Source: Lingula anatina
Lineage: Eukaryota; Animalia; Brachiopoda
Direction of reading: 5' to 3'
NCBI GenBank assembly: GCA_051362555.1
Contig: CM120643.1
Span: forward strand, 15,350,644 to 15,414,643
DNA length: 64,000 nucleotides
Within the stretch, counting starts at the first letter, position 1. Every line of letters begins with the position of its first letter. A program made the translations under genes and the position numbers. The notes below the pieces were generated by a model. That model was not told the origin of the DNA, did no database searches, and saw nothing but the letters and a program-made list of their open reading frames with translations. Below are positions 1 through 21,994 of this stretch, one piece after another.

Positions 1-329
1 GTCTATGACAGGAGTGAATGTGAATTAAGCTGAGGTCCAAAGCCAGACAGTTAACAACCACCGTTGACGTTCCCAAGGCTGGTTTAATTTTTATCTGAAT
101 CAATATTTCATTGGAATCAATTAAGGGATGGTTTTTTTGATAAGTAGACTTTTTATACTCTTTTTAGACCGTGATTTTGCAGTTCGTTAATGAATTCCCA
201 CTTTGTTAATTAGCAGTTCATTTTAATCAAGGGACTTGTTATTTCAAGTAAAAGAGTGAACACAAACATTTGAATATTATTTACTTGTGCTCGGTGTCTG
301 GTTGCAGGCTTTGTGCACACCTGGTAGGG

Positions 330-336
330 TATAAAA
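330..336 (+). promoter_or_regulatory. Putative TATA box of paralog A
   Basis: GGGTATAAAAAG lies 130 bp upstream of the ATG and is conserved at the equivalent position in all three paralogs. Confidence 0.6.
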
Positions 337-459
337 AGTAGTCACGTTTGCATAAGAAAGCTGGTTCTTTTTTTTAATGTTAACAGGAATAATTAGTGCC
401 TAGCATGAACGAATAGGGATTACATTACATTTGTCCTTGTTCGAGACCTCAAATTCAAG

Positions 460-1245
460 ATGTCAGATGCAAGGAGCGACAGTAATGTCAATCATGTGAC
501 GAGAACCAACCAGTTGGAAGGTAATCCTGCCTTTCCAAATATTTTGATAAATGTTTTCTTTAGCCAGAAAAGATTTATAAAATCAGTTATTTTTATGTAC
601 GCGAGATTTTTTTCAAAGAATGATTTGGCGAACATGTGAATCATGACATAACTGATGAATACAATATAAAAGTCCAAAGGGAAGGTAACATGGAAAATAT
701 GTGGTTACCAAATTTGACGCTCCTATGGTGGTTTTAACAAACTTTAAGTTCCAACATATTTACTAATTTGTAAAAGTATGATCAACTCTTATTACATTCT
801 TGATATAAGCTTTCGTTGAACGCATCGCATTTCACTGAGATAATCTACAGCAATTTACTTCACAGGTGGTTTCTACAGTGTGCATTCTTATCCTTATTAA
901 GAGTTGTCACTTGCGAATGTCTCTTATTTGATTAAGTGCTTAAATATACTTTCTTCCAGCCAGTCGCATACTGACAGTAACCATAGTGACATGTGTTCTG
1001 GTTGCGATGATTGCGCTCATCATCTCAGCCGTCGCAATCTCCAACCCTGCTGGCTCTGACATTACAATCCAGGGTACAACGGCAAATATTCAGCAAAATC
1101 AGCCACCCAGTAGGGCCTATGACGCCATCAACCGATATCAGGCCTCAAACAATAGAAGAATTTACACGATTGCCGTTGGATACGATACTGGGCCTTATAT
1201 ATATAAGTAAGCAGAAGCATTGGCCACATGCCGTGTGCGCGGGAG

Positions 1246-1284
<39 letters not shown>

Positions 1285-4200
1285 CTGTGTGTCAGAGAGA
1301 GAGAGAGAGAGAGAGGGTAAAATCTGCATATCTGATAAATTTAACTTTCCGTATAACTTTTTAGGGACGTCAGCGGATTCCTAATTGGATTCAATCACGA
1401 CTTAATAGACGCAGGTAATCAAAATTTTCTTTTGAACAATTTGTTTCGTTGTATAACATCCATTGATAGCAATAATACTGCGAAAATATCAACTTGAAAG
1501 TTAATGGTTTATTTATTTAATTAAAAAATTTTATTCATTCCATTATTAATTTTTTAAGTGTGTCAGGAGGCGGGAATTGATTGTAGGGTTGTCAAGGAGC
1601 CTTCCACCAACTGCATGTTCTCAGAGAGAGGACAGCCACACAGAGGAGGGATAGGTATGGAGCATTCTTTTATTTATACCATAGCAGTTGGTTGTTAAAA
1701 CCTATTTCTTATATTGCTTCGTTTTATGTTTTTCTTTCTTTCAAAATCGCACTTGGAAGCAGAGTTTTTAATGACTGGGTGAACTGAAGCTGACAAACTT
1801 TAATGTCAGAAATAATCAAAGTGGTTTGGTATTCATTTTAGTTAGGTCAACTTTTATAATTATATGGCGATCGAGGTTGAATACAACTTGTTCAGTTTTA
1901 TCCTAATATGTATTGACTGAGACTGTTTTGTGCTATATTGGACTGGGGCTGAAGCTTTCCCAATATGTTTTACTTTTGTTTATAGTTGAACATGATAATG
2001 AAATTCAAGTATTTGAATATAAATTTTACCTTGAATAATCCTATACATGGCATCATTTCAGGACTTATGGAAGGTTGGTACGACGCCTGCACCGGGTGGC
2101 TGACCACACGTCAACGGAAGCAGATTTTCGCATTTTCCAAGCCGTTTTTGAAACCTATTGAGGTCTATTTCTTCGCCTTTCCTGGATTTAATCCATTCAA
2201 TATCACTGGAAAGAAAATAGGTGAGTGAGTTATCCTGTATGCACGCATTAGAAGAAATCATTCGAGTTGAAATTTCTCCAACCAGTTATTCACTTCAGCT
2301 CTTTTCCTCACGAGTACCCGCTCTTTTTCTGGTATTACTATTTAATTGTTGTTCTAAAATATACGTAGAATGTCTAAATTGATGGAATATTTTGACAAAT
2401 TAATGTATTTGCGATTCCAAAAAGGTCAAACTACATTGTAAGACAAGATACGTCATTCACCTAGGTTATTAGTATTTTATTTTGATTTCAACTACTGACT
2501 CAATTAAAATCCATTAACTCCTGAAGTTTCTTAACCGTTTTTTTTTCATTTTGGTTCCTTTTGGTGCTCAGTTGTAATGTTACATTTCATGAAGAATTCC
2601 TACACCAAGTGAGGATGTCGTGTAGCTGCCACAAACCTCTGGAATCTACATGACGTGATCTTTCTTTGATCCATATCTTAAAGAATATTGCATGCGCGAT
2701 TTCAAGTTCAAACTAGAACCAACTGTAACTTACAACCAGCTCGTTGGTATTTTAATATAATTTCATGGTCTACCCTCAAGTTACAAATTTAAATTATTTT
2801 TGGGGAATTCCCTTCCTTTTGGTACCTTTTGGTGATCAATTATGGTAAATAAACGGTAAATTACAGAGAAAAGTTTATGTTAAGAAAACCAGGAATTAGA
2901 TCAGAAGAGCGGTTATCCAAAGGCTATATGTACTATTAAGAATTTAATGACATAGTCATCTCGGGTAGGTGTCACACACGTCCTCTATTCGTGAGGTTCT
3001 GACTTAACCCGTTTCTGCAGTTTGTTGGCTCAGATGAACCCAACCCTCAAGAACGCCTGCCTCAACTCATCCCTTAAAGTTGTCTGGTCCTCTCTTGTCC
3101 TTAAAGTACGATGAAGAGCATCTCAACATGCTCCTTAAAATAGAAAGGTGTTGCCATCAGTGAGTCGTGTAATGTCGTATTCAGACTAAGTAAGATCTCT
3201 TTACATTAATGTTTACATCAAATTTGACCGCAGCACTGAACAGTTCTATTCAGATAATGAATATTTATGGGAATAGAGGATCCCCCTCTTTGACACCCCG
3301 AGTGACCCCGAGATGTCCATCCTATTCAACAACAGCAGAAACATAAGAGAAGAGGGTTTTGATACATTTTGGGTGTCTCCAATGAAATTTAAAAAATGAT
3401 ACATTGCAAAATAAATGTATTTCCACTAGACGGAATCAAAAGCCTTTTCTAAATCTAGAGGTAACAGAAGAATGTTGGTTTTGGGTGCTTTGGGACGAAA
3501 GGCAACAACTGCAGGGACAAAAAAAGAAGGAAATAAATTTTTCATCTCTAGCTGTCACCCCGATTTTGCTTCTTAAAGGCATCTGCTATTAGGAATAATG
3601 AATTTCCTAGAGTAAAAATAACTGCTGTACATATGTCCTTGGAAATGTCAAAGAGGACTTTGGCTGTCTAAATCATTTGTGGTTCTTACACACTTGCTTT
3701 ATTTTTCTGGGAGAATTGCATTTGGCGCGAAGATGCCTTGTTGGATACCATTAAATACAGTGCACGTACGCATAGGTCTGAAACAACAGCAGCGCCTTGC
3801 CTTGAATGTGGGTTTCATGTAATTAAACTACAATTGCTGTATCTTGGGTTGAAAAAGAATAAACAAAAGTCAAGGCCAATTTGCGCGTTAAAGTTCTATT
3901 GTGAAATAAACCGCTAGCTGACACCCGTTCCCTAAACGACGTCAAAAAAGTCAGAATCGGCCTCGGCATTGAAATTGGCATAGACAAAGCTGGGTCTTAA
4001 AATGCAATCGTTAACCAATAAGCTCTGTGACCAATATCCAAAATTGGACTTTGTTTCGTCGGCTATCAAAGTAAACCAGACCTATGCCTACAAACGAGTG
4101 TCTTTAAAACGGCACATGGGTGTAAACATGCATGCTGACTCCTTACAGGACTGATAAGCGGCTTCTTCAGTAACGAAGCCTGCCTAGCTGGACTGGACCA

Positions 4201-4549
4201 GGTGACTGGAAGAGACGTCCCGCACTCCAACGTTTTCCACGCCCAGACGGTTGACGAGCTATTGGCTATGATCCAGAACGGAACTGTGAGTGTTTTCCCA
4301 TGCTACCTGTTTTTGTAACTCTTTTAAATACGCCCATATGTTTTAAATCCCACCGCATCCCAGTGTTCAGACTTCACCCCTTTTCATTATTGTGAAATAA
4401 GCTTTATGACTTAACATTGGCCAGAAAAGCTACGTTAGGCTACTCGCCACTATGGTCTACTGGTTAAGCTGCATATATAAACATATCAAAAGCACGATCA
4501 AAAACAATTTCGTGAAATATTTCGTATCACTATGTAACCTTCTCAGATG

Positions 4550-4611
<62 letters not shown>

Positions 4612-5419
4612 CAGCTTTACCATCGTCATTCATTTGAGTTATTACAACCAAATACGTTTTCAAGATCATTTAATGAATTTCAGCGGTTAAATACATTGAG
4701 GCGCATCAGCTCTCGACAATTATGAACCTTTTTCAGTGATGTCGAAATTGGATATTTTCTTTACCAATCATTTAATAATTCTTAATATACAGGTAGACGT
4801 GGGTTTAAGCACGGGGCCTTCTATGGCCACCAAAATCAATGGCACTAATACCCAACGGTTCCCATCGGATCCCATGTTCTGTAAGAATGCCGGACAACCT
4901 GGAATGATGACCCGTAAAGACAATGACTTCAACTCTAAATGGAATGAAGGGTTTGAGAAACTGGTCTCTTCAGGACGTTTTAGACGGCTATGTGATGAGG
5001 CACGGATCAAGCACGGTACGTCTGGGCAGTTTTGATTAATTTCCGGTAGTATGTTATTAATAACTAGGGATCTATTACTTAATTTACAATACGTATATTG
5101 ATTATTACAAAACACTGTAAGCTAGTTAATGTAAGCAATGTCGCAAGAAACCGCCACAAGAGGTGCTGTTTTCAAGATAAGCAAAGGAAGGTTAACAACG
5201 CCCATGTTTTTTTCACAGTAAAAACTTCCCTTATAGGATATCAAGGCAAAATCATTACACTGAAAAACAAAGTTATCAAATTAAGATATCGCTTGAGGTA
5301 ATCTTTCATGTTTAAAGATTACATTCATGACACGTCACGTGATATCATCCAACGTCACATACATTGTAACGTTTGTCTCAACAGGTCATCGCGGTGAGAT
5401 TGGCTGTGTGGATGCCTAA
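460..5419 (+). CDS. Membrane-anchored solute-binding-protein family 3 (PBP type II / SBP_bac_3-like) protein, paralog A, 335 aa, 8 exons
   Basis: Exons 460-520, 960-1206, 1365-1414, 1559-1654, 2062-2220, 4149-4285, 4793-5015, 5385-5419 join in frame (1008 nt), all GT-AG. A short N-tail (MSDARSDSNVNHVTRTNQLE) precedes a hydrophobic helix (ILTVTIVTCVLVAMIALIISAVAI). Motifs then follow in SBP_bac_3 order: YTIAVGYDTGPY, DVSGFLIGFNHDLIDAVC, LMEGWYDA, TTRQRKQIFAFSKPF, ITGKKIG, DELLAMIQNGTVDVG, RKDNDFNSKWNEGFEKLVSSGRFRRL. Gene structure is high confidence; the domain call is by motif recognition. Confidence 0.85.
1248..1315. repeat. (TG)n(AG)n compound microsatellite in intron 2 of paralog A
   Basis: Seen directly. 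Related tracts occur in B (~8133-8181) and C (~13237-13295). Confidence 0.9.
4551..4608. repeat. (TA)n microsatellite
   Basis: Seen directly in intron 6 of paralog A. Confidence 0.95.
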
Positions 5420-5432
5420 CAACAGGAATCAA

Positions 5433-5650
5433 AAACTTTCACCTTGATAGCTAAAGCACAAAACAATGCACCCGTAACCTTTATCTTGATGGTTAAAACA
5501 CAGAAATTTAGGAATTGGTAACCTTCACCTTGATGGTTAAAACAAAGATATAGGCGGCCGTTACCTGAACCTGATATCTGGATCTCAGAAGATATCCTTG
5601 GCCTTCAGGTTGAAAGCTAAACCACAGGACGAGGCATCCGTAGCTTTTAT
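5433..5650 (+). repeat. Degenerate ~43-bp tandem repeat in the 3' UTR of paralog A
   Basis: The core AACCTTCACCTTGATRGYTAAA recurs about 5 times. B has about 1 copy (10771-10820) and C about 3 (16973-17070). Confidence 0.65.
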
Positions 5651-7252
5651 CAGCTTGCGGAACTTACAAGAAGCCAAGACGAAATTTATAAATGAATCTA
5701 ATGGATAGAACCGAAAATTTATTGATAATGTGTGAATTTCATGCTGATGAAAGGATTACCACCAGTGATATCAATTTCAGACCCGCAGTGTTTTTTTAAG
5801 GAAGCACAAATGTAATTCCAACAGGCTTATTACATGTAAATGCATAACTTTAGTGCTGCAGTTGATAGTTATTAGCATTTCATTACCACTACAATTAACT
5901 AATTTTATTAATTTCTTTTTTGACAAAATCAACAGTCTCATGAAAGAAATGTCGTCTTCGGAAAAGAAAAACATAACTGTTTATAATGGAAATAAGCTGA
6001 TTTATTTTTATTTTTCACATGACGCACAAGGCTCCTGGTTTGATTTAAGATACTAATTTAGCAAAGCAAAAGTAATCAGGCGGTGCCGTCCTGACTGAGG
6101 TAATGCAGTTATATGGGTTATATAAAGCCAAGGAGTTATAACAGAACTAAGATTTGTTAAAATATTTGTAGTAGGTAATTCTGAAACTTCCTGTTTGGGC
6201 ATAGATGAAAATTATAGCCTCGTTTTGGCCTACGACAAAGGCCATAGGTTAACTTACATGTATTAACAAAATTTGAAAAAATGTGATGCTTTTGTTTAAG
6301 TTGTTATACATGTATTTACATACATGAAGGCAAATTTTACGAATACGAGTGGGGGAAAGTGTATCAGGCAAATACACATTTTGAATTACTGTAGCTGGAT
6401 CCATCAATTATAAAACTCGGATTAAGTTGAGTCCGTAGCCAACGGTATGCGCCATATCTAACTAGCTGCGACCCCTTTCAGCAGAATGAAAATGGTATAG
6501 TTCAGCAGGTTCATTTGCGAAATATTTTACCTTTGTAGGAAATAAAGCTTTAAACGCAAAAACCTCGGCTTTTTATCTCATAGCCATCAAGGCGGTTTCT
6601 GTTGATTCGTGATAACTTTGCTGACTTGGACGCAAACACTGAGACAATTTAACGTATATTGCAACGCGCATAATGTTGTTGAATTTAGGGATGAAAATAA
6701 TATCTGTTTTACCTAAGCAACAGTGACAGCTTTGACCTATAAAATCCCATGAAGATTAAGTGGAGTAATAATGCTTGTAATTTACTTTTTATTTGCTTTT
6801 GGTGATTAATGCATTTCTATGGCTTTAACTTCAGTCTTCCACTGATTGAATTTGATACCACACCATGTATAAGACATTAAAAGTATTACAATATTTTCAA
6901 TACTGTGGTCTCTGACAGGAGTGAATGTAAATTAGGCTGAGATCCAAAGCCAGACAGTTAAAAACCACTGTTGACGTCCTCAAGGTTGGTTTGCTGTTTT
7001 TTTTTCTGAATCAGTATTTCATTGGAATAAATTTATTGATAATTTGTGTAATATGTAGGATTTTTCTTGCTCTGTGAGCAAACTTTTAGATCGCGATTTT
7101 GCCCACTTTGTTAATGTATTTAGGCTTTGTTAATTAACAGTTCATTTTAATCAAGGGACTTATTATTTAAAGTAAAGGTGTGAACACACACGTTTGAATA
7201 TTATTTAACTGTTCTCGGTTTTGGCTGCAGGTTTTATGCACACCTTGTAGGG

Positions 7253-7259
7253 TATAAAA
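7253..7259 (+). promoter_or_regulatory. Putative TATA box of paralog B
   Basis: GGGTATAAAAAG lies 144 bp upstream of ATG 7397 and is conserved despite divergence of the flanks. Confidence 0.6.
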
Positions 7260-7396
7260 AGTAGTCACATTTGCATAAGTAAGCTGGTTCTTTTTTTTAC
7301 TTTTTTAATGTTAACAGACACAATCCGTGCCTAGCATGAACAGATGGAGATTATATTACATTTGCCCTAGCTCGAGACATTTGTCCTAGCTCCAAG

Positions 7397-8130
7397 ATGT
7401 CGGATGCAAGGAGCGACAGCAATGTCAACCATGTGACGAAAACCAACCAACTAGAAGGTAATTTGCCTTAGAAAAGATTTGGTAAAATGTTTTCTTTAAA
7501 CAGAAAATATTTTACTTCAGCAGCGATTTTCTGTACTCGATTTCATTTATTGTAACCGAATGTCGAACATGTACAGAGGGGTGACACAAGTACAGGGGTA
7601 GTGTATTATCTATGTGAATAGGTCGCTGTGTGATTTGGAGGGACCCGTAAGTAAAAAAGTGTTTTGCGTTTTATTGTTCGTCTAACCAGTGATGGATTTT
7701 CGATCATGTGCACTGTAAAGGGTGCCATCGATGGTGTAACGCCTTCTGGCTGTCAAGTTTCTACCATGGTGAATGTACGGGAGCTCAAACATGCAGGAAG
7801 AATTTTTTTTTCGGGTTAATCCCTATATTTCTTCTCTTCCAGCCACCACGACAATAACCATAGCGATTTGTGTACTGGTTACGATAGTTGCGCTCATCAT
7901 CTCAGCCGTCGCAATCTCCAAACCCGCTGGCTCCGACATTACAGTTCAGGGTAAAACGACGAGTTCTCGACAAACTCCCCAGCCTGCAATAGCATACTCA
8001 CCCAGTACCTATGACGCCAGCCGGTGTCAGGCTTCCAATAGAAAGAGAATTTACACAGTGGCCATTGGATTCGATATTGGGGCTTATGTATATAGGTTAG
8101 CAGAAATAAGCAGAAATATAGATCAAATGA

Positions 8131-8170
<40 letters not shown>

Positions 8171-10753
8171 GGGGGGGGGGGTCAGAGCAAATGGAGGGTT
8201 TGTGTAAAATCTGCAAATCTGATGACTTTAACTGTCCGTCTAACTTTTCAGTGACGACAGCGGGTTTCAAGTTGGATTCGGTCACGACCTAATAGACTCA
8301 GGTAATCAAAAATTTCTTTGAATAATTTGTTTGGTTCTTGTTTAAATATCCTTTAATAACATTGAACACTGCATTACCACTGCAAAATATTAACTTGGAA
8401 GTCAATGGTTTATTTATTTAATTAATCATTTTTTATATATTTATTCGATTATCTATTTATTTAAGTGTGTCGGGAGGCGGGAATTGATTGCAGGATTGTC
8501 ACGGAGCCGTTCACCAACTGCATGTTCTCAGAGAAAGGGCAGCCACAAAGAGGGGGGATAGGTACAGGGCATTATTCTATTTACATCATAGCAGTTGGTT
8601 GTTAAAACGAGTTTCTTTTATTGTTTCGTTTTAGGGTTTTTTTTTTTAAAACGCGCTTAGAAGCAGAGTTTTTAAAGAGTGGGTGAAGTGAAGTTGACAA
8701 AGTTCAATGTAAGAAAATAATCAAGTGGTTTGGTAAAGCTGGCAACTAAATTATTCACTTTGGTCAGGTCGACTTTTATATGGCGACAATTTGTTCATTT
8801 TTATTCTAAAATGTATAGTTAAACTGAGACTGTTATGTGATATATTGGACTAGAGCTAAAGCTTTTCCTACATGTATGTTTTAACATTTATACGTTTTTG
8901 TTTGTAGTTTATAGTTGGGCATGATATTGACATTCAAGTATTAGAATAAATTTTACCCTGGATTTTGTCTTTACATGGCATCATTTCAGGACTTATGGAA
9001 GGTTGGTACGACGCCTGCATCGGATATCTGGCCTCACGTCAACGAAGGCAGATTTTCTCATTTTCCAAGCCGTTTCTGAAACCACTCGAGGTCTATTTCT
9101 ACGCCTTTCCTGGATTTAATCCATTCAATATTACTGGAAAGAAAGTAGGTGAGTTTTCTTGTATTCACATAGTAGGTAAGATAATTCACGTTTCATCATG
9201 AGTACCAGGTCTTGTTTTGGTATTACTGTTTTTAAAACTGCGAGTCTTTTAAAAGCGGTCCATTGGTATTAATATGCGTGCTGCCTCCTTACAGGACTGA
9301 TTAGCGGGTTCTTCACTAACGAAGCTTGTATAGCCGGACTGGACCAGGTAGCTGGAAGAGACGTCCCGCACGCCAACGTTTTCCATGCCCAAACACCTGC
9401 CGAGCTCTTGGCTATGATCCAGAACGGAACAGTGAGTGTATTTTCTATGTTACCAGTTTTTGTAATAATTCTTTTTAACACGCCAATATGTTTGAAATCC
9501 CACAGCATCCCAGTGTTCAGACTTCATCTCTTTTAATTATTGTGAAATGAGCTTTATAATTAGACATTGGCCAGAAAAGGTGAGGCTGCCCTTTTATCAG
9601 TGGCAGATTTGGAAGGGGGGGGGGGGGGGGGGGGGTGCACCGGGGGGGGGGGGTCCTGACCCTCCTTCCATTTCTGAAAATCCAACTGCCCTCTCTTGAA
9701 ATTAGAATTTTGACTTACTGAATCTTAGTTCTAAATAGTACCAAATAGGACCCTTCGCCCTCTAAAATACCAATTTTTTATCGGGGCCCTTCAGCGGATC
9801 CGCCCCTGTTTTGTGGTACATTCGTAAAGCTGAAATTTGGCATCTGCATATATATAAACATATCAAAAGCAGAATATTTTGTATCACTAATTATCCCTCT
9901 CAGTCTTAACTGTTTATACAGATGGCCTATTTCAGCTTTACTATCGTCAATCATTTGAGTTTACTGCATCCAAATGCGTTTTCAAGGTCATTTAGTGAAT
10001 TTCAGCGGTTAAATACATTGAGGAGTGTCACCTCTCGACAATTATGAACCTTTTGTAGTGATGTCGAAATATTGGACGTTTTCTTCACTGATCATTTAAT
10101 ACTCCCCAAATCTTACAGGTAGATGTGGGTTTTGCGGCCGCAGTAGATGTGATCAACGTAATCTCTGACACTAATGTTCGACAGTTCCCCTCGGGTCCCT
10201 TCTTCTGTAAGAATTACGGACAGCCCGGAATGATGACCCGTAAAGACAACGACTTCAACTCTAAATGGAATGAAGGGTTTGAGAAACTGGTCTCTTCAGG
10301 ACGTTTTAAACGGCTATGTGATGAGGCACGGATCAAGCACGGTACGTCTGGGCAGTTTTGATTACTTACCGGAAGTATGCTGTAAATTACTAAGGATATA
10401 TTACTTAATTTACATTACGTATATTGATTATTACAAATATACACTGTAAGCTAGGTAATGTAAGCAATGTCGCAAGAAACTGCCACAAGAGGTGCTGTTT
10501 TCAAGATAAGCAAAGGAAGGTTAACAACGCCATTCTTTTTTTTTTTGCACAGTCAAAGCTTCCCTTATAGGGTATCAAGACAAAACCATTACATTGAAAA
10601 ATAAAGTTATCAAATTAAGATATCGCTTGTGGTAATGTTTTTATGTATAAATATTACATTCATGATCGATACGTGATTTCATTCAACGTCACATACATTG
10701 TAACGTTTGTCTCAACAGGTCATCGCGGTGAGATTGACTGTGTTGATGCCTAA
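7397..10753 (+). CDS. Membrane-anchored SBP family 3-like protein, paralog B, 337 aa, 8 exons
   Basis: Exons 7397-7457, 7843-8095, 8252-8301, 8466-8561, 8990-9148, 9295-9431, 10119-10341, 10719-10753 (1014 nt). Exon sizes and phases match paralog A except a 6-nt longer exon 2. The frame is intact. Confidence 0.85.
9598..9808. mobile_element. Short TIR element (MITE, hAT-like termini) in intron 6 of paralog B
   Basis: Termini CAGTGGCAGATTT ... GGATCCGCCCCTG are imperfect inverted repeats with a poly-G tract inside. It is absent from the homologous intron of A. The TSD is not clean. Confidence 0.65.
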
Positions 10754-12315
10754 CAACAGCTGGGATCTGTAACCTTCACCTTGATAGCTAAACCACAGGA
10801 CGAGGCACCCGTAACTTTTATGGCAACTTGTGGAACTTACAAGAGGCCACGGCAAAATTTTTAAATGAATCTAATGGATAGAACCGAAAATTTATTGATG
10901 ACGATGATGATGATGATGGAAGGATGACCACCAATAATACCAGACCCGCAGTGTTTTTTAAGGAAGCACAACTGTAATTCCAACAGGCTTATTACATGTA
11001 TATGCATAACTTCAGCGCTGCAGTTAATAGTCATCATCATTTCATTACCATTACAATTGACTAATTTTATTAACTTCTTTTTTTGAAAAAATCAACAGTC
11101 TCATGAAAGAAATGTCGTCTTCAGAAAAGAAAAACAGAACTTTTTATAATCGAAATAAGCTAGCTGTTTTATTTTTTATTTTTCATGTGACGCACGAGGC
11201 TCCTGGTTTAATTTAAGAGACTACTTTAGCAAAGGAAAAACGACCAAGCGGTGCCGTGCTGACTGCGGTAATGCAGTTATATGGGTTATATAAAGCTAAG
11301 AACTAAGTTTTGTTAAAATATTTGAAACAGGTAATTCTGAAACTTTTTGTTTGGGCATAGATGAAAATTATAGCCTCGTTTTGGCCTACGACAAAGACCA
11401 TAGGTTAACTTACATGTATTAACAAAATTTGAAAAAGGTGATGCTTGTGTTTAAGAATTTTACGAATACGAGTGGGGGAAAGTGTATCAGGCAAATACAC
11501 ATTTTGAATTACTACAGCTGGATCCATCACATTATAAAATTCGGATTAAGTTGAGTCCGTAGCCAACGGTATGCTCCATATATAACTAGCTGCGACCCCA
11601 TTCAGCAGAATGAAAATGGTATAGTTCAGCAGGTTCATATTTGCGAAATATTTTACTTTTTCAAAAATCATGTAGAAAATTAAGTTTTACACGCAAAAAC
11701 CTCAGCTTTTCAACTCACGCGGTTTCTTTTGGTTCGTGATAACTTTGCTGACTTAGACAAGCACTGAGACGTGTATTGGAACATGTACAGTATAACGTGG
11801 TTGAATTTAGGAATGGAAAGAATACCTGTTTTACCTTAGCAACCGTGATAGCTTTGACCTATAAAATCCCATGAAGATTAAGAGGAGTAAGAATGCTTGT
11901 AATTTACTTTTTATTCGCTTTTGCTGATTAATGCATTTCTATGGCTTTAACTTCAGTCTTAAGGGTACTTATACAGTGATGTTCATAAGTGAAGAAACAT
12001 TTGCTTTTCAATTTTCTTTTTAAAAAATCAAACCTTTATTCAGAGGGAAATCTGCACAGACGTTTTCCACTGATTGAATATAATACCACACCATGTACAA
12101 AACATTAAAAATGTTACAATATTTTCAAAGTAGACTTTTTATACTCTTTTTAGACCGTGATTTTGCAGTTCGTTAATGAATTCCCACTTTGTTAATTAGC
12201 AGTTCATTTTAATCAAGGGACTTGTTATTTCAAGTAAAAGAGTGAACACAAACATTTGAATATTATTTATTTGTGCTCGGTGTCTGGTTGCAGGCTTTGT
12301 GCTCACCTGGTAGGG

Positions 12316-12322
12316 TATAAAA
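12316..12322 (+). promoter_or_regulatory. Putative TATA box of paralog C
   Basis: GGGTATAAAAAG lies 131 bp upstream of ATG 12447. Confidence 0.6.
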
Positions 12323-12446
12323 AGTAGTCACGTTAACATAAGAAGGCTGGATCTTTTTTTTTTATGTTAACAGGAATAATTAGTGCCTAGCATGAACGAA
12401 TAGGGATTACATTACATTTGTCCTTGTTCGAGACCTCAAATTCAAG

Positions 12447-15400
12447 ATGTCAGATGCAAGGAGCGACAGTAATGTTAATCATGTGACGAGAACCAACCAG
12501 TTGGAAGGTAATGCTGCCTTTCCAAATATTTTGATAAATGTTTTCTTTAGCCAGAAAAGATTTATAAAATCAGTTATTTTTATGTACGCGAGATTTTTTT
12601 CAAAGAATGATTTGGCGAACATGTGAAACATGACATAACTGATGAATACAATATAAAAGTCCAAAGGGAAGGTAACATGGAAAATATGTGGTTACCAAAT
12701 TTGACGCTCCTATGATGGTTTTAACAAACCTTAAGTTCTAACATATTTGCTAATTTGTAAAAGTATGAGCAACTCTTATTACATTCTTGATATAAGCTTT
12801 CGTTGAACGCATCGCATTTCACTGAGATAATCTACAGCAATTTACTTCACAGGTGGTTTCTACAGTGTGCATTCTTATCCTTATTAAGAGTTGTCACTTG
12901 TGAATGTCTCTTATTTGATTTAGTGCTTAAATATACTTTCTTCCAGCCAGTCGCGTACTGATAGTAACCATAGCGACATGTGTTCTGGTTGCGATAGTTG
13001 CGCTCATCATCTCAGCCGTCGCAATCTCCAACCCTGCTGGTTCTGACATTACAGTCCAGGGTACAACGGCAAATATTCAGCAAAATCAGCCTCCCAGTAG
13101 GGCCTATGACGCCATCAACCGATATCAGGCCTCAAACAAAAGGAGAATTTACACGATTGCCGTTGGATACGATACTGGGCCTTATGTATATAAGTAAGCA
13201 GAATCATTGGCCACATGCCGTGTGCGGCGCGAGCGCGTGTGTGCGTGTGTGTCTGTGTGTCAGAGAGAGAGAGAGAGATTGGGGGGGGGGGGGGGTAAAT
13301 CTGCATATCTGATAAATTTAACTTTCCGTATAACTTTTCAGGGACGTCAGCGGATTCCCAATTGGATTCATTCACGACTTACTAGACGCAGGTAATCTAA
13401 ATTTCCTTTTGAACATTTTGTTTGGTTCGTTTTCTGTTCGTGTTTGAAAACAATAACAATGCTAAAATATCAACTTTGAAATACTGTCTCATTTATTCAT
13501 TTATTCTTTATTGAGTCTGCCTGGAGGCGGATATGGATTGTAGGACGGTCACGGACCAATCCACCAATTGTATGATCTCGGAGAGAGGGCAGCCGATGCG
13601 CGGGGGCAAAGGTATGGAGATTCAGATTCTGTTTTGTTTATATCATATTATTTGTTTCTCCTTTTGATTGTATTTCTTCAATGTTTTGAATAACTGGGTA
13701 AGTTTAATGTGAGGCAATAATAAAATAATTAAAGTGAATCATGAAAGTGTTTTGGTTAAGCTGACAGCAAACCTACTCACATTGGCGAATGCGGTTCTTC
13801 TAAGATAATTCTGACGATTTTTTAAAAGTTTTATTCTAAAATGTATAGTTTGCCTGAAACTGTTACACGCTATATTACACGCTATACTGATCTAGGAGTG
13901 ATGTTTCTCCTATATGTTTAACTTTTGTTTATAGTTGTTTACAGTTAATGTTGAACATGATATTGAAATTCAACTATTGGAGTATAAATTTTACCCTGAA
14001 TTTTGTCTATACGTGGCATCATTTCAGGACTTATGGAAGGTTGGTACGACGCCTGCACCGGATGGCTGGCCACACGTCAACGGAAGCAGATTTTCGAATT
14101 TTCGAAGTCGTTTCTGAAACCTCTTGAGCCCCATTTCTACGCCTTTCCTGGATTTAATCCATTCAATATCACTGGGAAGAAAATGGGTGAGTTATCCTGT
14201 ATTCTGATTTTGGAAAAGATATTTTGAATTATGATTTCTCTAAGCCCATATCTGACTCTTACAGACCATTGTTCTTAATAACGATAAGTTCCCTCAGTTA
14301 AAAATGCCTGAAGTCTCTATTTCCTTAAAAATGCGAGAGAGACTATGTATAGCCGTCAAAATCAATCATGATTCTTTTTGAACCAAGTTATTTATTGAGA
14401 AATAAGACAAAACGTCGAATCCTAGATGCTGATTCGTTTCTTTGGGAAATGCTTTTTTTCTCTCTAGGAAAATTAGATTTGCTGCGTTGTTCCCGCAAAT
14501 GATACTACAAAAGATAAAGTACGCATAATTGGTCTGTACTGTAACAGAAGCAGTCTTAATTGTTACAAAACGAGCGAGATATGTTATACTACTGAGGTTT
14601 TTGGTTATCAGAAGGCTTAATCTTTTGACTTGAAGCTTAGACAAATGTCCGAACTACAGTTCTATTGTGAAACAGGCCAATGGCACTTAGCTGTCTCATT
14701 AAACGAAGAAAGTCAAAATAAGACTAAGCATAGATATTCATAGTCGACAAAGCAGATTTGTACAAAGGCAATCGTTTGTAAATCGCTCTTTTCGCAATAT
14801 CGCGAAGTCGACTTCACTTCACACGCTGTCAAAGTTAAGCAGGCTAGGAAGACCTACAAACTTGAAACTCATGACAGCAACCCTCTGTTTATTCACATGT
14901 AAATACACACTTACTCTTTACAGGACTGGTAAGCGGGGGTTTCACTAACGAAGCCTGCCTAGCTGGACTAGACCAAGTGGCTGGAAGAGACGTCCCGCAC
15001 TCCAACATTTTCCATGCACACACGCCTGACGACCTCGTGGCTATGATCCTGAACCGCACTGTAAGAGACCATTCCCACAGATATATGGATCGATCTATCT
15101 CCCTGGGGAGTCTCACTCAATTGCTGTCAACTTGACCGGCTTAAATGTCTGTCACGCCTAGTAAAGCTGTTAGGGAGTAACTATCTTTACCTCCTAGGTG
15201 ATTCGGTAGGCGTGACAGACAACTAAGCCGGTTATTTGATAGCAATTTAGGGAGACTCCCCAGGGAGTTAGGTCGATCCAGATGGATCTATCTAAGTATT
15301 GGAACCCAAGCTAAGTGTTTTACCTACGTTCTCAGTTTTGTGCCGTTCTTTGACATATACGCCAAAAGGGTCATATAATATATATATATGACCCTTTGCC

Positions 15401-16955
15401 AAAACGTGACTAGACATACAAGGGCCTCTTTCTGTACCCTCGTCTCTTAACCTTTCATAATACAGAACAAGCTTCTTAATCGAGTTTTTGCACGATTTCT
15501 CTCAACTTATCTGCTATTTTTTACTCATTATCATGAACTAAGTTTGGATCCGTTATTTTGTACCAAAATGAGTGAAAAAAGTAGATTTATATATCAGAAA
15601 TTGGCGGAAAATACGCACTAAAGGGCGTTACACGCTATGCCCAGTGTTACTGTCGCATCTCAAGTGCAACAGCAACCTGTTCCTTGGTGGAATTGTCAAC
15701 ATGGTATATTCCAAAAGTACTGTATATAAGTAACGTATGGAAAGAATAACAAAAACCCATAGTCTGGCGTACTTAATTACACCCACTGTGTTGCAGCCCA
15801 TCTTTATTTAAAAGTGTAACATCTGTTATATCCTAAAATCAGAGCATCACCTTTGTCAGCCATTTGCAAAACTTGCAATATGTGAAAGAAGTCTTTCAAC
15901 CAGTAACAATCAGGCAGTTTATTTTTGATGTCTGACATTTGGTATTTTTAAAGGGACGTTTTGGTTAAGGGCCATATATGTATGGAATCGGTCCAATATG
16001 TGTGCCTGTGTGTGTGAAATAGGCCAAAAAAAAAAAGGTCTTACAAGTCGTATTATTCCATCTTGTATTTCAAAATTTCAAGACTGAGAAGTCATATTAT
16101 CAATGCCAAAAAATTCCTTGAAATTTATTTTGATCGTACTTTCAATATTTTTATACAAATTTAAAAGCCCAATTCCGACTTTACCATCGTCATTCATTGT
16201 GTCCAAATGCGTCTCCAAGACCATTTAGAGAACTTCAGTGGTTTGATACATTAAGGCTTACATGTTCAAGCTCTCGGTGGTACAAACCTTCTTGAATGCT
16301 ATCAAATTTCAGTGTTTTCTGCCCCAATCATTTTACGCTCCCCAAACATTACAGGTAGACGTGGGGTTTATCATGAGGTCTGTGATGGATATCAAAATAT
16401 CTGGCACTAATATCCAACGGTATCCAGAGTACCCCCTCTTCTGTAAGAATGCCGGAGCATCAGCGATGATGACCCGTAAGGATAATGACTTCAACACTAA
16501 GTGGAATGAAGGGTTTGAGAAGCTTGTTTCTTCGGGGCGTTTCAAACGCTTATGTGAAAAGGCAGAAACTGAGCACGGTACGTCTGAGTAATTCTGTTCT
16601 CAAATTAATGCCAGTATAGACTGATAACACAGCATGTATTAAAATGCTATTTCTCTTTCTACTTTACTCTCTACAATACATGTGATGACCAAAAGCGGAA
16701 GATACAGGCAATGTCGCCACGGTCAGCCAGCTGATTTTATAACTAACAAAGAACTGTAAACAACGTTCTTGTTTCATTGTCCACAGTCAATGCAGCCCTT
16801 ACATAATAGTATAGTATTTACATTTCACATCGTTTTTGTCCATGAAACAGAAAGTTATAAACTTTCAGTAGTGCTAGATCGAAAACCCCATTTAACGCCA
16901 CATAACTTTTGTCTCAACAGGTCACCGCGGTGAAATTAATTGCGCGGATGCCTAA
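12447..16955 (+). CDS. Membrane-anchored SBP family 3-like protein, paralog C, 335 aa, 8 exons
   Basis: Exons 12447-12507, 12947-13193, 13342-13391, 13516-13611, 14028-14186, 14924-15060, 16355-16577, 16921-16955 (1008 nt). The frame is intact. The exon 4 acceptor is an uncommon GAG. Confidence 0.83.
15065..15311. mobile_element. Palindromic MITE with TAA duplication (Tourist/PIF-Harbinger-like) at the exon 6 donor of paralog C
   Basis: Inverted arms of ~75 bp at 15086-15160 and 15207-15280. TAA flanks at 15062-15064 and 15312-15314, after which sequence homologous to the A/B intron resumes. Confidence 0.7.
15389..15974. mobile_element. Non-autonomous TIR element in a TA tract, intron 6 of paralog C
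   Basis: Ends TGACCCTTTGCCAAAACGT and ACGTTTTTGGTTAAGGGCCA are imperfect inverted repeats flanked by TA runs. It is absent from A and B. Confidence 0.5.
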
Positions 16956-18093
16956 ACAACAACATACAGCGTCACCTTCGCCTTGATGGCTAAATCACGG
17001 AAGGGGCATCCGAAACCTTCACCTTGATGGTTCGATCATAAAAAGGGTCATCATTATCCTTCACCATGATGTCGCATTATGAAATGTATATTTGTTAAGA
17101 AGGAATTTATAAGCATAAATAACTTTTTGATGGTACATGTATCGAACATTCAACAAACATTAATATACATATTCCACGTTAATGCAGAAGACCAAAATTG
17201 GCAGATTTAAGGGCCCTCTATTATTCACCTCACTAAAACTGAAAAGGAATCTTGGAGCTATGCCCGTTTCCATGGTTACATGATCATTAGCTATGCCCTA
17301 ACCATGGCATGTAAACTATACATAAGAATCATTTTTTCGGTAAATCCATGATTTTACATCTCCTTTTTTTTTTTAATTCATACGACGCAAGACAATATAT
17401 ATCAGTGAAGTAGTTGTGTAGTGTAAAAAGCACCATTTATCATTTTATTCTTCATTTTTAAATTCAACAAGGCAGATGCGTATCAGAAAAAGATTTACGC
17501 TTGGCATTTTATTCAGTCTGTTTACATTAAACGCATTTCAAATGAAGTAGTAACAATATCATAGCCTTTTGTGTTAATATTTTCCAAAAACGTATTAGGA
17601 ACCCAGAAATTTCATGGGGTGAGCTCGTAACCCAGAATTACCGTATGGGGAATATTTCTAGAAGCACTTACCACATGAACCATTTTACATAAGAGGTTAT
17701 AACTATCCAAAGGACAGATTGGACAGATCCGTAAGAAAAGAAAAGTTTGACCCTCTGAGGCATTGCCCTGTATCATAAGAAAAAATATGAAAAATGGTTA
17801 AAATGGTTAAATGTTAAAAAGCATTAGTGAGGACCGCTCTTGGTAAAAAAACCTGAAAATTTTTTTTTTGGATTTGAAAGGGATTAGTAAAAGATAAGTA
17901 GCTTTGCAGCATATTTACACATAAAACTATTACTTTGAGGTTTGTCAAACACTTTAAGTATATCTTTTGAAGTTAATTAATTATATTTGAAATCCTACTC
18001 TTAAAACCGACCTCTTCTCTCATTGTGGGACAATGCATCGTTCAACAACGAAGCGTAACGTCGCGTAATCGGTACGTCATTTGAATAGTAATG

Positions 18094-18172: not shown

Positions 18173-21100
18173 ATGTCGATTTTACGGTTATTGATATTAT
18201 TAATTCTCAGTTTTGCTTGTGTATTTATATTACACTTTCTCCAGAATAATGACAGGTACGTACAAATTCAATGTATAGACCGTCTTCTTAAGTTTAAGCA
18301 ACAAAAGCAAACGGTGTAAATTTTCACGCTCGTAGACTGTCTTCACTTGCTCAGCACAAATTCTGAAAACTCTTCTTATAGACGTTTTTTTGTGTTTTTT
18401 CAAAATATTTCGTTGGAAATTCTTGTTCATAAGTAGATACCCAATTGTTTCTAATGTGTACATTAATGTTTATTATTCCATTATACTTACTCATAGGAAC
18501 ATCGAAGATCAAAACCTGGAGATTTACATTAACATATCGGTTCGAGCTACTGGGGACAGCAGTCCAGAAGAATTCGTAAGTCATAAGATACATCTTACAG
18601 AATTCGGACCGAGGGAGGGCCACCCATGGTTTACAAGAACAACAACGAGAAGGAGGAGCGGCGCCAGTAGACATCTCTTCAGCACTGACTTAAATGAAGA
18701 AATCGCTGGAAATGAACCACCTCCAACGAACCATGATGAAACAACCAAGACAGGAAACAAAACTAGTACTGGTGAGAGTCCCTTTTTTATTGAATTCGGC
18801 TTCAGACATGTTTGAATGAAGTTGATGTAGATTGAATTACAGTAAATAAATAAATAAATAAATAAATAAATAGCTTAGAGAAAAATGCCCAATCAGTGGT
18901 ACATTGTATCAAACTTCCTGGTACTTTATCAAGCGAATGATCAAAGGAAAACTGTAAGGAAACAAGCTCTTGGTTAGAAATAAAGCGGGTTTGTGTTCGA
19001 TTAGTACAAATGTCCATACTTTTTAAATGGATAGCTTATCTTTAAAAAAAAGAGTAGATTTCAAAGCACGCTTTAACGTGCAGAATCATAATGATGAGTG
19101 TGGCAACAGAGTTTTGATTGGACCGTGCCGCATATCAAAATTAACGCCGCCTTTATCCATCATTCTTTTGATTCATTAAAATGTCAAATATTTTTCAGAC
19201 CGTGGGTGGAATGCCTCTTACTTCAAGTCTGTAGCTTTCTCAGCCTATCAGGACGCTGTTCAAAGCATCGCCGACGTTAAAGACAAGAGTCACAGTCACT
19301 TTGTTTTTTGGCAACACAGCCTTTATGCTCTTCTTAATAACTACTGCGACAAAGTTCAGGCAACATCAGCAGCAATAGGTGAGACAGTTGTGCCATATAT
19401 GGATATCCTTAGCTACTACTATGTCAAACTGGTTAATTATCTTCTTCTTTCTGGCATTTTGAAAACGTGTTCAGTTGTTGAATAATGTCCATTTAGTGTC
19501 TTACATGTGTCTGCCATTAGATAGCATGCGATTTTGATGCATGCTCTATGTAAATGAATTTGATTGAACATTATACATCTCACTTTTTTTCATTTCAGTG
19601 CATGACATTGTAGAGGCCATTGAAGGCAGCAAGAAGTCTGCAGAAGAAGTCTTCAGGTCATTCAAGGACGGGCTTGTAGCACACATTGATAATGGCATCG
19701 CTCGAGTGCGCCTCTACTTCGTTCCTGAGTCTCCCGTGGAACGAAAGTGTAAAGGACATTCCAACTGGTACGCAAAGAGCGCCTGTACACTCTTGTTCCA
19801 TGCTGCTGAATACCCTCCACAACTTGTCTCCACTCTGGCTGAAGGATACGACAGAATTTTTGAAATCACCAGAAGGCTCTTCGTGGGTGAGACGCACAAA
19901 GATAAGGTCTGCAAAGGCTACGACACCGTGCCGTTCCTTCGGAAAGTCTGTGAGACAGGATTTGATGTGGCGTCAAAGACAAACGAAATCCTAGAGAACG
20001 CCCAAGAGTTCCTCAGTAAATGTATTGCACAGCCAGCCTTGGACTTTACCCGGAAGGTCATCACATCTATAACAGACTGTGTATGGAAAGTTAAGGAGGG
20101 GTTTGCAAGAGCCTGTCACAATGGGATGAACCTGGGAAATAAAATTACAACTTACCTGTATCAGGGCTTGGACGTCGAAGCGGCTAAAGGTAGATACAAC
20201 ATACAAATTGAAATCACCCTGGTCCCATGCAATTCCCGTTTAAAATATCACCTTTTGAAGCACATCTACATTGCCAGAAATGTTTTCAATTTAACATGTT
20301 ACAACACTTAATTATCTTCATTTCAAATATTGTTATTATAACAATAACGTTATTAGGCACAGATAGAAATCAAAACATTGCCCTCTTCTTTTTTCAGCAC
20401 TTCTGTATTCTGTGTTGAAGAAGGTTGCGTACAAAGTCCATGACGTCTACGTACGTCTTCCCCGCTTCAATGGTGATCCCATACATGATGGGCTGGTGGT
20501 TGTAGCCTGGGTGGTGTGTGCCCTAGCCCAGGGGTTGGTGGTCTACTGGGCCAGGAGGAAGATCAGTCTAGGTACAATATCCAATGTTTAGGCTACTGTA
20601 GTAGCCCATGATGTATTCACACACGATTGATGACTATTCCGCGCTATTTGTATTGGTTTTTAAAAGCTTTTATATTGACTATTAATGCCGTATACACTGT
20701 TTGATAATCATAAAGCTATTTAGCCACAAATTAAAAGGTTAACTGGCATATTTTAACTGTACGTTTTGCAGCATTTATAAAGTATGTTGTCTTTCTAGAT
20801 AACAACGTAAGAAAGGCCCGTCAAATGCGACTTCGTTTCTCCCATCCCACCTCATCAGAAGATTACTATGACAGGATTACGAGACTCGTTAGGGAGCAGG
20901 AGAAAGATGCAGAAAGCGGAGGTGCAGAATTACCCGATGAAACCGAGAGCTTTCAAAATGTAAATGTCACCCCTGCTGTTACTGACAACGATGACAAGGA
21001 CGGGGCCAACCCAGTCGATGACCTAGGCAACGATTCCGGCGTGTGGGCAGACATGTCTTTAGGACGGATCGAGGAGGAGGAGGAGGAGGCGGCACCAACG

Positions 21101-21994
21101 GTATCAGCGCCCTCTTTGGCCCAAGAAGAACCAAAAGAAGTGAAAGAGGCGCAGTTTCACCTACCTCCAGAACCAGAGGCTAACGCACAACTGCTAGACC
21201 TGAAAGATGAATCCGCCCTGGAGAGCGAAGTGGTGCAGCCTGACGACACACATGATGAAGAACAAAACACTTCAGTAACAACTTATGGAGAGGAGCTAGA
21301 AAGCTCCACAGATGCAGCAAAGTACAGCGAAGGAGAGACGCAAAAGTTAGCTTCCTCTGCAGTTATCCATGACCCACAGGGCGAACCCGTACCAGATGCC
21401 GCATCTCAGATGGATATGAACAACAATGAAACAGAAAATGACGGCAGTGAACACCTCATTGAGGTAAGTTTTACGTTGTATTAGCTCGAATATATATAAC
21501 TTTAAAAAGTTTCATTTTAGCTCGTCATTTCCTCATATAAAACGTTGATTGTTGATTATTACTGAAGAAGATAAAACACAATCTGCCTTTTACTGAAACA
21601 TATATTTAATAGGTAATTTGTTTTATAAATGTTCTTTAGGCTTCACTTATTTTTCTGCCCCTAGCTATAATTAGTAATTAAGGTATGGAGAAGGCCCTAC
21701 TCCCAATTTTTTTTTTTTTGAAAAAAAAAAAAAAAAAGAACCGGAAACTAATTCTAAATAAAATTGTTTTAGGAAATCAAGGAGTCCCTGCCGTCCAATG
21801 TCTCTGATGTCAACACGGATGAGACACGCGGAAAGACAGTCATCTCCGAGACATTAAACCAAACTGACAGACGTGACCTCCCGACTCCTCAGCCGACCGA
21901 GGCCAACCGCGGGGGCGGCGGTTGGTGGTCCAGAATCGGCCATGCCGCTTGGGTTGTGTTCAGATACATTTTAGAGCATCCAGAGCTTTTCTAA
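18173..21994 (+). CDS. Uncharacterised membrane protein, 729 aa, 7 exons (signal/anchor, Cys-containing helical region, TM helix, acidic disordered tail)
   Basis: Exons 18173-18255, 18497-18771, 19199-19378, 19599-20189, 20398-20571, 20799-21463, 21773-21994 join in frame (2190 nt), all GT-AG. The N-terminus is MSILRLLILLILSFACVFILHFLQ and the TM helix is GLVVVAWVVCALAQGLVVYWARRK. No family was recognised. Confidence 0.75.

What the first reader, a model, noticed from the sequence alone, without database searches (positions are those of the whole stretch)
4793..16577. Paralog divergence concentrates in predicted ligand-pocket loops
Seen: exon 7 begins VDVGLSTGPSMATKING (A), VDVGFAAAVDVINVISD (B) and VDVGFIMRSVMDIKISG (C). 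The rest of the exon and the following intron are nearly identical between A and B. Other variable spots are GYDTGPY/GFDIGAY, EPSTNC/EPFTNC/DQSTNC, TGWLTTRQR/IGYLASRQR/TGWLATRQR, ISGFFS/ISGFFT/VSGGFT and NAGQPG/NYGQPG/NAGASA. Established: in family-3 SBPs these segments line the binding cleft. The Arg of T.ER binds the ligand carboxylate, and an Asp shortly after the VDA strand binds the alpha-amino group. Inference: the Arg is kept, the Asp is apparently absent and the loops differ. This suggests diversifying selection for different carboxylate ligands, i.e. a receptor-like repertoire.
Basis: partly seen in the sequence, partly recalled or inferred. Interest (0 to 1): 0.75.

Follow-up and report, generated by a model that had tools for sequence, protein, structure and literature searches.

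The report
Brachiopod binding proteins with variable pockets
Three neighbouring brachiopod genes encode relatives of bacterial nutrient-binding proteins, predicted to be anchored in the cell membrane; their differences cluster partly in the predicted binding cleft, so they likely catch different small molecules, but ligands and positive selection remain unproven.

Summary
Real and partly supported. The window holds three intact 8-exon tandem genes, closely related to Lingula anatina RefSeq proteins. Each encodes a predicted N-terminal anchor plus a lone family-3 solute-binding domain with a LAO/NocT-like fold. The family (eight conserved cysteines) also occurs in annelids, priapulids, echinoderms, hemichordates, amphioxus and protists; six literature searches found no paper on it.
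All quoted motifs are present. The exon-7 patch (aa 256-266, at and after the LAO Asp161 site) is a sharp divergence peak between A and B (20 of 33 nt differ), beside a near-identical tract, in genes that are mosaics from gene conversion. Across nine clade members, cleft positions vary more than the rest (p 0.04 with a published 16-residue list; 0.001-0.005 with wider lists); that published list is not significant on A/B/C alone. Pocket dN/dS is about 1.4 versus 0.4 elsewhere, but not significantly above 1, and M1a/M2a finds no selection. Arg77's equivalent is kept. Asp161 is absent family-wide, and a clade-invariant hinge Glu185 may replace it, so 'non-amino carboxylates' does not follow. The predicted cytoplasmic tail is short, so these are capture proteins rather than self-sufficient receptors.

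The parts
460..5419 (+). Gene A CDS span, 8 exons (460-520, 960-1206, 1365-1414, 1559-1654, 2062-2220, 4149-4285, 4793-5015, 5385-5419); 335 aa: predicted N-terminal anchor, linker, SBP_bac_3 domain
   Evidence: closest RefSeq protein in the domain is P0004 (LOC106165231), 9 domain differences
7397..10753 (+). Gene B CDS span, 8 exons (7397-7457, 7843-8095, 8252-8301, 8466-8561, 8990-9148, 9295-9431, 10119-10341, 10719-10753); 337 aa
   Evidence: 98% identical to truncated RefSeq P0012 (LOC106158017) over aa 1-250
12447..16955 (+). Gene C CDS span, 8 exons (12447-12507, 12947-13193, 13342-13391, 13516-13611, 14028-14186, 14924-15060, 16355-16577, 16921-16955); 335 aa
   Evidence: 96-99% identical to RefSeq P0009 (LOC106165178) in four blocks covering aa 1-290; 4 differences over aa 88-329
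4808..4840 (+). Hypervariable patch aa 256-266 in A (STGPSMATKIN); codon 257 (4811-4813, Thr) aligns with LAO Asp161 / AncQR Asp167 / NocT Ser207
10134..10166 (+). Same patch in B (AAAVDVINVIS); 20 of 33 nt differ from A; Ala at the Asp161 site, Asp three residues later
   Evidence: present in a contig of DNA run X1
16370..16402 (+). Same patch in C (IMRSVMDIKIS); Met at the Asp161 site
   Evidence: same peptide in RefSeq P0009
2115..2117 (+). Arg170 of A (B 9043-9045, C 14081-14083), aligned with the carboxylate-binding Arg77 of LAO; Arg in 141 of 148 family domains
2160..2162 (+). Glu185 of A (B 9088-9090, C 14126-14128): invariant in 9 of 9 clade members, absent in 14 of 14 outgroup proteins; aligns with NocT Met117 / OccJ Asn111 / LAO Ser92
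1603..1605 (+). Codon 135 of A (B 8510-8512, C 13560-13562): S/F/S, aligned with aromatic clamp Phe52 of LAO; Tyr or Trp in 14 of 14 outgroup proteins
4163..4165 (+). Codon 210 of A (B 9309-9311, C 14938-14940): F/F/G, aligned with LAO Ser120; Trp in 14 of 14 outgroup proteins, F/G/L/W in the clade
142..1414 (+). Tract nearly identical between A and C (12128-13391): upstream region to exon 3, intron 1 97.9% identical; inferred gene conversion or unequal crossover
4898..5419 (+). Tract most alike between A and B (10224-10753): 3' half of exon 7, intron 7 (91%), exon 8; inferred gene conversion

Best explanation
A, B and C are intact tandem paralogs encoding a lone family-3 solute-binding domain behind a predicted membrane anchor; they likely act as cell-surface capture proteins whose pockets have likely been retuned by selection for different small anionic ligands. 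Steps. Shown: gene structure, spliced expression of clade members, SBP3 membership, mosaic ancestry, and a divergence peak at aa 256-266. Predicted: a two-lobed LAO/NocT-like fold and a type II anchor at about aa 24-48. Inferred from alignment to solved homologues: the ligand's acid group is held by Arg170; any amine or N-substituent is probably read by Glu185 rather than by an Asp161 equivalent; specificity is set by aa 97, 113, 135, 184, 210, 256-260 and 285-286. Inferred: conversion homogenises scaffold exons and reshuffles lobe-1 and lobe-2 pocket halves, while selection keeps the exon-7 patch distinct. Inferred and untested: having only a ~23-residue tail, the protein hands its ligand to, or signals through, a separate transporter or receptor. 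My best guess for the ligand class is amino-acid derivatives (N-substituted or opine-like) rather than free basic amino acids.
For: Pfam PF00497 above its cut-off for P0004, P0009 and P0003. Model of P0004: mean pLDDT 79.7; Foldseek top hits NocT and LAO, E about 2e-16. Clade entropy at cleft positions versus the rest, nine non-redundant members: 0.68 vs 0.42 for the published 16-residue list (p 0.042; circular shift 15 of 246); 0.79 vs 0.41 with two more NocT contacts (p 0.005; 3 of 246); 0.91 vs 0.40 for my 15-position list (p 0.001; 0 of 246). The same positions are not more variable than background in 14 outgroup proteins. Patch 256-263 entropy is 1.73 versus 0.68 in the disordered linker. 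A-B patch pN 0.66 exceeds domain pS 0.25 (Fisher p 0.0001, post hoc). Arg170, Gly163, Gly209, Glu214 are invariant in the clade, and the rest of the domain has omega about 0.36. A divergence peak amid conversion is a published signature of selection (PMC3924837 passages). NocT and OccJ lack Asp161 and prefer N-substituted amino acids. CdgH uses Glu122 on the alpha-amine instead of the Asp. Spliced exon 7-8 reads from clade members were found in 3 of 3 RNA runs.
Against: Omega is not significantly above 1 for the pocket (p 0.32) or pocket plus patch (p 0.07); M1a versus M2a p 0.83 (only three codon sequences). The published 16-residue list is not enriched on A/B/C alone (7 of 16 vary, p 0.26). 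My 15-position list was drawn up partly from recall after I had seen the alignment. The exon-7 segment is also highly variable in outgroups (entropy 2.3 vs 1.5), and aa 261-266 probably run away from the cleft. The allele-versus-paralog contrast is not significant (1:16 vs 19:64, p 0.18). The clade's stem lost several deeply conserved near-pocket residues (H95, W132, D133, D213, K215, R219), which also fits decay of binding. No ligand, partner or tissue data. The fold match to NocT is no closer than to LAO (17-21% identity for both).
Confidence: 0.55

Rival explanations
1. Relaxed constraint plus patchy gene conversion. After duplication the pocket drifted almost neutrally, because binding is loose or redundant. 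The exon-7 peak is an old, unconverted island next to a recent conversion tract, not a selected one.
For: Pocket omega of 1.3-1.4 is compatible with 1; no selected class in M2a. Strong mosaicism: 272 pattern switches among 853 informative sites, p 0.0001. Synonymous divergence varies widely by exon (pS 0.00-0.68). The patch is variable across the whole family.
Against: The A-B patch differs at 20 of 33 nt, while the adjacent intron 6 end is 84% identical. The patch is more variable than the disordered linker. Arg170 and Glu185 are invariant in the clade. Eight distinct patch versions occur among 11 sequences, yet C and P0009 share theirs, as do A, P0003 and P0004.
Confidence: 0.3
2. Immune or microbe-sensing role. 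The proteins recognise microbial small molecules such as cell-wall fragments, and the variation reflects host-microbe conflict.
For: Lineage-specific expansion (about 20 Lingula loci), conversion-driven shuffling and a hypervariable patch resemble invertebrate recognition families (recalled comparison). An MltF-annotated SBP3 chain is among the weak PDB hits.
Against: No signalling or effector domain was found. There are no induction data. The cleft is small-molecule sized in all solved homologues.
Confidence: 0.1
3. Ecto-enzyme. As cyclohexadienyl dehydratase did, the family turned the SBP3 fold into a catalyst, with Glu185 or Glu214 as the catalytic acid, and the paralogs differ in substrate.
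For: Cyclohexadienyl dehydratase and its ancestors are among the PDB profile hits. Both Glu residues are invariant in the clade.
Against: Those hits rank below the amino-acid-binding proteins. Glu185 is not conserved outside the clade, and Glu214 occurs in only 72 of 148 domains.
Confidence: 0.05

Closest known systems
Bacterial polar amino-acid SBPs (Pfam PF00497: LAO, HisJ, ArtJ, GlnBP)
   Same: Fold, Pfam membership, Arg77 equivalent. The Cys121/Cys128 pair aligns with cysteines of NocT; the HisJ/LAO disulfide there is recalled.
   Different: Intron-containing animal genes; predicted N-terminal anchor; six further conserved cysteines; Asp11, Tyr14, Ser72 and Asp161 equivalents replaced; far below the NCBIfam LAO cut-off (26 vs 256 bits); no ABC permease partner known.
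Opine-binding PBPs NocT and OccJ
   Same: NocT is the top Foldseek hit by a small margin. Both keep the Arg, lack Asp161 and use the hinge residue at LAO 92 for specificity (PMC4192606, PMC5740067 passages).
   Different: About 18% identity; the G97-M117-H170-S207 signature reads L-E-S/T-T/A/M here; the arginine-side-chain pocket (Glu36, Tyr39, Trp77) is not kept.
Ligand-binding domain of ionotropic glutamate receptors and insect IRs (recalled)
   Same: Same SBP3-type clamshell in animals; IRs diversify pocket residues while often keeping the Arg (recalled).
   Different: The domain is contiguous rather than split by pore helices; no channel; one predicted membrane helix; no Lig_chan match.
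Opsin-type divergence peak under gene conversion (PMC3924837 passages)
   Same: A narrow peak of replacement differences at functional sites next to homogenised sequence.
   Different: Here the functional difference is unmeasured, and homogenisation is clear on only one side of the peak.

Membership tests
PF00497 SBP_bac_3 domain | Profile score above the gathering cut-off | tested here: met
   52.4, 33.7 and 44.2 bits versus 26.4 for P0004, P0009 and P0003. These are RefSeq relatives; single window exons alone did not pass.
PF00497 SBP_bac_3 domain | Two-lobed type II PBP fold | tested here: met
   Model of P0004; Foldseek probability 1.0, target TM 0.70-0.82 to most closed-form hits.
LAO/HisJ/GlnBP-type amino-acid-binding proteins | Arg77 binding the alpha-carboxylate | tested here: met
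   Arg170 by alignment.
LAO/HisJ/GlnBP-type amino-acid-binding proteins | Asp161 and Ser/Thr72 binding the alpha-amine | tested here: not met
   T/A/M at 257 and Leu at 165.
LAO/HisJ/GlnBP-type amino-acid-binding proteins | Asp11 plus aromatic clamp Tyr14/Phe52 | tested here: not met
   Gly94; T/I/T at 97; S/F/S at 135.
LAO/HisJ/GlnBP-type amino-acid-binding proteins | Works with a cognate ABC permease | not testable with these tools
   No genome is held for this window; no permease-like ORF was noticed, which lists only long single-exon ORFs.
Opine-binding PBPs (NocT/OccJ) | Ketoacid-binding signature (G97-M117-H170-S207 or S91-N111-T163-A164-N202) | tested here: not met
   Aligned residues are L165, E185, S/T212 and T/A/M257.
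Ionotropic glutamate receptors / IRs | S1-S2 domain split by pore-forming membrane segments | tested here: not met
   One hydrophobic helix, at the N-terminus; contiguous domain.
Positively selected receptor repertoire | dN/dS significantly above 1 at ligand-contact sites | tested here: inconclusive
   Pocket 1.38 (p 0.32 vs 1); post hoc patch 2.26 (p 0.045); M1a/M2a p 0.83; three sequences only.
Positively selected receptor repertoire | Different ligands for different paralogs, and coupling to a signal | not testable with these tools
   Needs binding assays and partner identification.

The most novel reading that the evidence does not exclude
Marine invertebrates carry an overlooked small-molecule sensing or scavenging system built from stand-alone, disulfide-locked, bacterial-type periplasmic binding proteins on the cell surface. 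Lingula has turned it into a ligand repertoire in which gene conversion shuffles pocket halves between tandem copies and selection keeps a hypervariable exon-7 cassette distinct, the proteins working in trans with a transporter or receptor as bacterial SBPs do.
Probability: 0.3. Interest if true: 0.85.

Novelty: new variant of a known kind. Interest (0 to 1): 0.58.

Why it matters
In animals this clamshell fold is familiar as part of glutamate-type channels (recalled). A separate stand-alone family, found here in six animal lineages and in protists, sits in databases as 'uncharacterized', and my searches found no paper on it. If the paralogs bind different ligands, this is a new class of animal chemical-capture proteins, a candidate for chemosensation or dissolved-nutrient uptake in marine invertebrates. 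It would also be a natural panel for studying how SBP specificity evolves and a source of biosensor scaffolds. The test is cheap: three soluble domains and a ligand screen.

Tried and rejected
Assembly or annotation artefact: rejected, since the ORFs and splice sites are intact, RefSeq has matching proteins and B's patch is in a DNA contig. Bacterial contamination: rejected, given seven introns per gene and spliced RNA reads. Paralog-specific loss of Asp161: rejected, Asp occurs in 8 of 148 domains. First mapping of LAO Asp11 to Asp96: replaced by Gly94 from the ungapped NocT alignment. One search used wrong patch coordinates (259-269) and gave an inflated omega of 6; this was corrected to 256-266 and the first value is not used. 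Site model M2a found nothing. The allele-versus-paralog test was not significant. Expression of the exact B and C patches: no reads fit B's patch in the parts read of X12, X15 and X18, and C-like reads were only weakly seen in X14. Only 6-30% of each run was read and tissues are unknown, so this is no evidence of silence; one search listed no RNA holder. No whole genome or relatives are held. The ESM Atlas and VIA-align searches gave no answer, so there is no atlas look-alike list and no Z-scores. No model coordinates were available, so no distances to the cleft were measured. Earlier scan findings: none. A recalled link to brachiopod opines (tauropine) found 0 papers and is not used as support. 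No complex prediction was run, since no partner is claimed.
Full report
WHAT IS THERE. The first 17 kb hold three tandem + strand genes: A 460-5419, B 7397-10753 and C 12447-16955. Each has eight exons with the same intron phases, GT-AG ends and an intact ORF of 335, 337 or 335 aa. A search with A's exon 7 returned 11 proteins among 20 candidates, all named Lingula anatina, up to 96% identical, so the window is likely from Lingula. It differs from the RefSeq proteins, so it is probably another individual or haplotype. An AlphaFold model of the nearest relative P0004 (33-sequence alignment, mean pLDDT 79.7) shows a helix at 24-48, low-confidence stretches at 1-25 and 48-84, and a confident domain thereafter. 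Foldseek matches it to NocT, LAO, HisJ and ArtJ at E about 1e-16 to 1e-15 and 17-21% identity. PF00497 passes its cut-off and is the only Pfam family in the 3 clade proteins scanned. Type II orientation is inferred from hydropathy, the cysteines and 2-3 N-glycosylation sequons. Cleavage of the anchor was not tested; some relatives have only a short signal-like N-terminus.

THE FAMILY. A profile search gave 41 proteins, about 20 Lingula loci plus Owenia, Branchiostoma and Priapulus. A search of 1.84 billion representatives gave 134 clusters at E up to 1e-30. Of 30 proteins looked up, 12 carried an organism name: Saccoglossus, Ptychodera (2), Lamellibrachia, Lytechinus, Owenia, Priapulus, Amphiura, Prasinococcus and Namystynia make 10 of these, and I count an MMETSP transcript and none other as organism-less, so the firm count is 10 of 30. 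Of 148 aligned domains (145 of 184 fetched proteins passed a coverage filter, plus A, B and C), 135 have the first seven conserved cysteines, 97 have all eight, and 141 have Arg170. The weakest hit examined, P0184, is an ordinary bacterial SBP-permease fusion. In a 27-protein tree the 11 window-type proteins form one clade (100/100) on a long stem (0.58), within Lingula sequences at 93/89 support (truncated P0012 left out). I did not test the family's origin from bacteria.

OBSERVATION. All quoted peptides are present. Between A and B, exon 7 differs at up to 18 of 30 nt near its start, 4-6 of 30 in the middle and 0-2 of 30 from nt 106; intron 7 is 91% identical and the end of intron 6 is 84%. 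The densest 11-codon window of replacement changes lies at aa 254-266 in all three pairs (p 0.0002 for A-B and B-C, 0.09 for A-C). Still, 54 of 83 variable domain positions lie outside the six quoted segments.

DO THE CHANGES MAP TO THE CLEFT? No coordinates were available, so mapping is by alignment to AncQR, ArtJ, STM4351 and NocT. Residue lists came from passages of PMC5431781, PMC4192606 and Table 3 of PMC5740067. In A numbering: G94 = LAO D11, T97 = Y14, S135 = F52, T162 = S69, L165 = S72, R170 = R77, E185 = S92, I207 = L117, F210 = S120, T257 = D161, and 285-286 = NocT G238-V239. One ArtJ alignment placed the F52 equivalent at 132 instead; three others and the predicted helix start favour 135. 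All six quoted segments thus contain cleft positions. In nine non-redundant clade members, entropy at the published 16 positions is 0.68 versus 0.42 (p 0.042; shift control 15 of 246), and at 18 positions 0.79 versus 0.41 (p 0.005; 3 of 246). On A/B/C alone, 7 of 16 vary (p 0.26) and 9 of 18 (p 0.13). My own 15-position list adds D30, S18 and L71 from recall and was drawn after seeing the alignment; it gives 0.91 versus 0.40 (p 0.001) and 10 of 15 on A/B/C (p 0.007). In 14 outgroup proteins these positions are no more variable than background. In nine other Lingula proteins the published list is enriched too (p 0.019) but my list is not (p 0.22). Most telling, positions 135 and 210 are Tyr/Trp and Trp in 14 of 14 outgroup proteins but S/F/Y/T and F/G/L/W in the clade. 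Aberrant ends of P0008, P0009, P0012 and P0018 were blanked before counting.

IS IT SELECTION? I fitted a codon model to the three genes with separate branch lengths in four segments. One omega gives 0.46. Pocket versus rest is 1.38 versus 0.41 (p 0.0004), but pocket versus 1 has p 0.32. The post hoc patch gives 2.26 (p 0.045), pocket plus patch 1.59 (p 0.07), and M1a versus M2a p 0.83. So the pocket is released from purifying selection; positive selection is suggested, not shown. The genes are mosaics: A matches C from the upstream region to exon 3 (intron 1 97.9%) and matches B best from mid-exon 7 on; 853 informative sites show only 272 switches (p 0.0001). Among RefSeq proteins, P0002 and P0003 join B-like N-terminal halves to the A-type patch, so pocket halves are reshuffled. 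A narrow peak amid conversion is described as a signature of selection (PMC3924837 passages). The patch is also more variable than the disordered linker (1.73 vs 0.68). Against this, the patch is variable family-wide, and the allele-versus-paralog contrast is not significant (p 0.18).

LIGAND CHEMISTRY. Arg170 argues for an acid group (established for LAO, GlnBP and AncQR). The missing Asp161 is a family trait (8 of 148), not a paralog novelty. It does not exclude an amine: CdgH uses Glu122 instead, and NocT and OccJ lack the Asp and prefer N-substituted amino acids. The clade has an invariant Glu185 (9 of 9; 0 of 14 outgroup proteins) at the hinge position where NocT Met117 and OccJ Asn111 contact the ligand, and B has an Asp at 260. 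The ligand class is therefore inferred to be small anionic amino-acid derivatives; this is untested.

EXPRESSION. Reads of clade members splice exon 7 to exon 8 at the predicted GT-AG intron in 3 of 3 RNA runs (28, 3 and 51 reads). They also join exons 4-5 (2 of 4 runs) and 5-6 (4 of 4 runs) when laid on C. Most of these reads carry letters of other paralogs, including the A-type sequence just after the patch.

LITERATURE. Six full-text searches for this family in animals listed no paper on it; I saw only listings and abstract starts for those hits. Term searches of the Lingula genome paper (PMC4595640, main text and 1 supplement file) and the hemichordate genome paper (PMC4729200, main text and 2 supplement files) found no mention of PF00497 or solute-binding proteins; one Lingula supplement row lists a different family, Peripla_BP_6. 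PMC4917951 passages confirmed the LAO pocket residues. Most subscription journals and bioRxiv supplements were not searchable, so absence from print is not established. Databases already label these proteins by domain.

VERDICT. The cleft mapping is moderately supported, and diversifying selection is plausible but unproven. The wider finding, an apparently undescribed stand-alone SBP3 family of marine eukaryotes with a pocket-remodelled, recombining Lingula subclade, is the more interesting result. New variant of a known kind; interest 0.58.

Noticed in passing
window 15062-15315: A MITE-like hairpin element (inverted arms 15083-15130 / 15236-15283, 88% complementary; inner arms 15135-15232) is inserted immediately after the exon 6 donor GT of gene C, apparently flanked by a TAAG duplication. 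Many RNA reads from other copies map to it.
   Followed up: partly
window 13514-13516: The modelled acceptor of C exon 4 is the rare GAG type (TAG in A and B); its use in C itself was not shown.
   Followed up: no
window 5420-5640, 10754-10820, 16956-17070: The 3' UTRs carry repeats of a short TTCACCTTGAT-like unit in varying copy number; reads show 'goes back' joints there.
   Followed up: no
window 40373-53860: A large nested duplication (about 40.4-47.9 kb versus 50.0-53.9 kb, up to 97-98% identical) with ~160-bp and ~340-bp tandem units, and a 364-bp 99.7% inverted pair at 46627-46990 / 49295-49658.
   Followed up: no
window 18336-23293 and 37645-39105: Open frames of other, unidentified intron-containing genes, including acidic low-complexity exons.
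   Followed up: no
proteins P0147, P0136 (Ptychodera), P0088 (Lytechinus), P0042, P0062, P0138: Other expansions of the same family also show diverse pocket residues. Some members have two to five tandem SBP domains, and P0062 is fused to thrombospondin repeats.
   Followed up: partly
P0001 versus P0002: A RefSeq isoform of LOC106158025 skips exon 5, which carries Arg170, and would lack the acid-binding residue.
   Followed up: no
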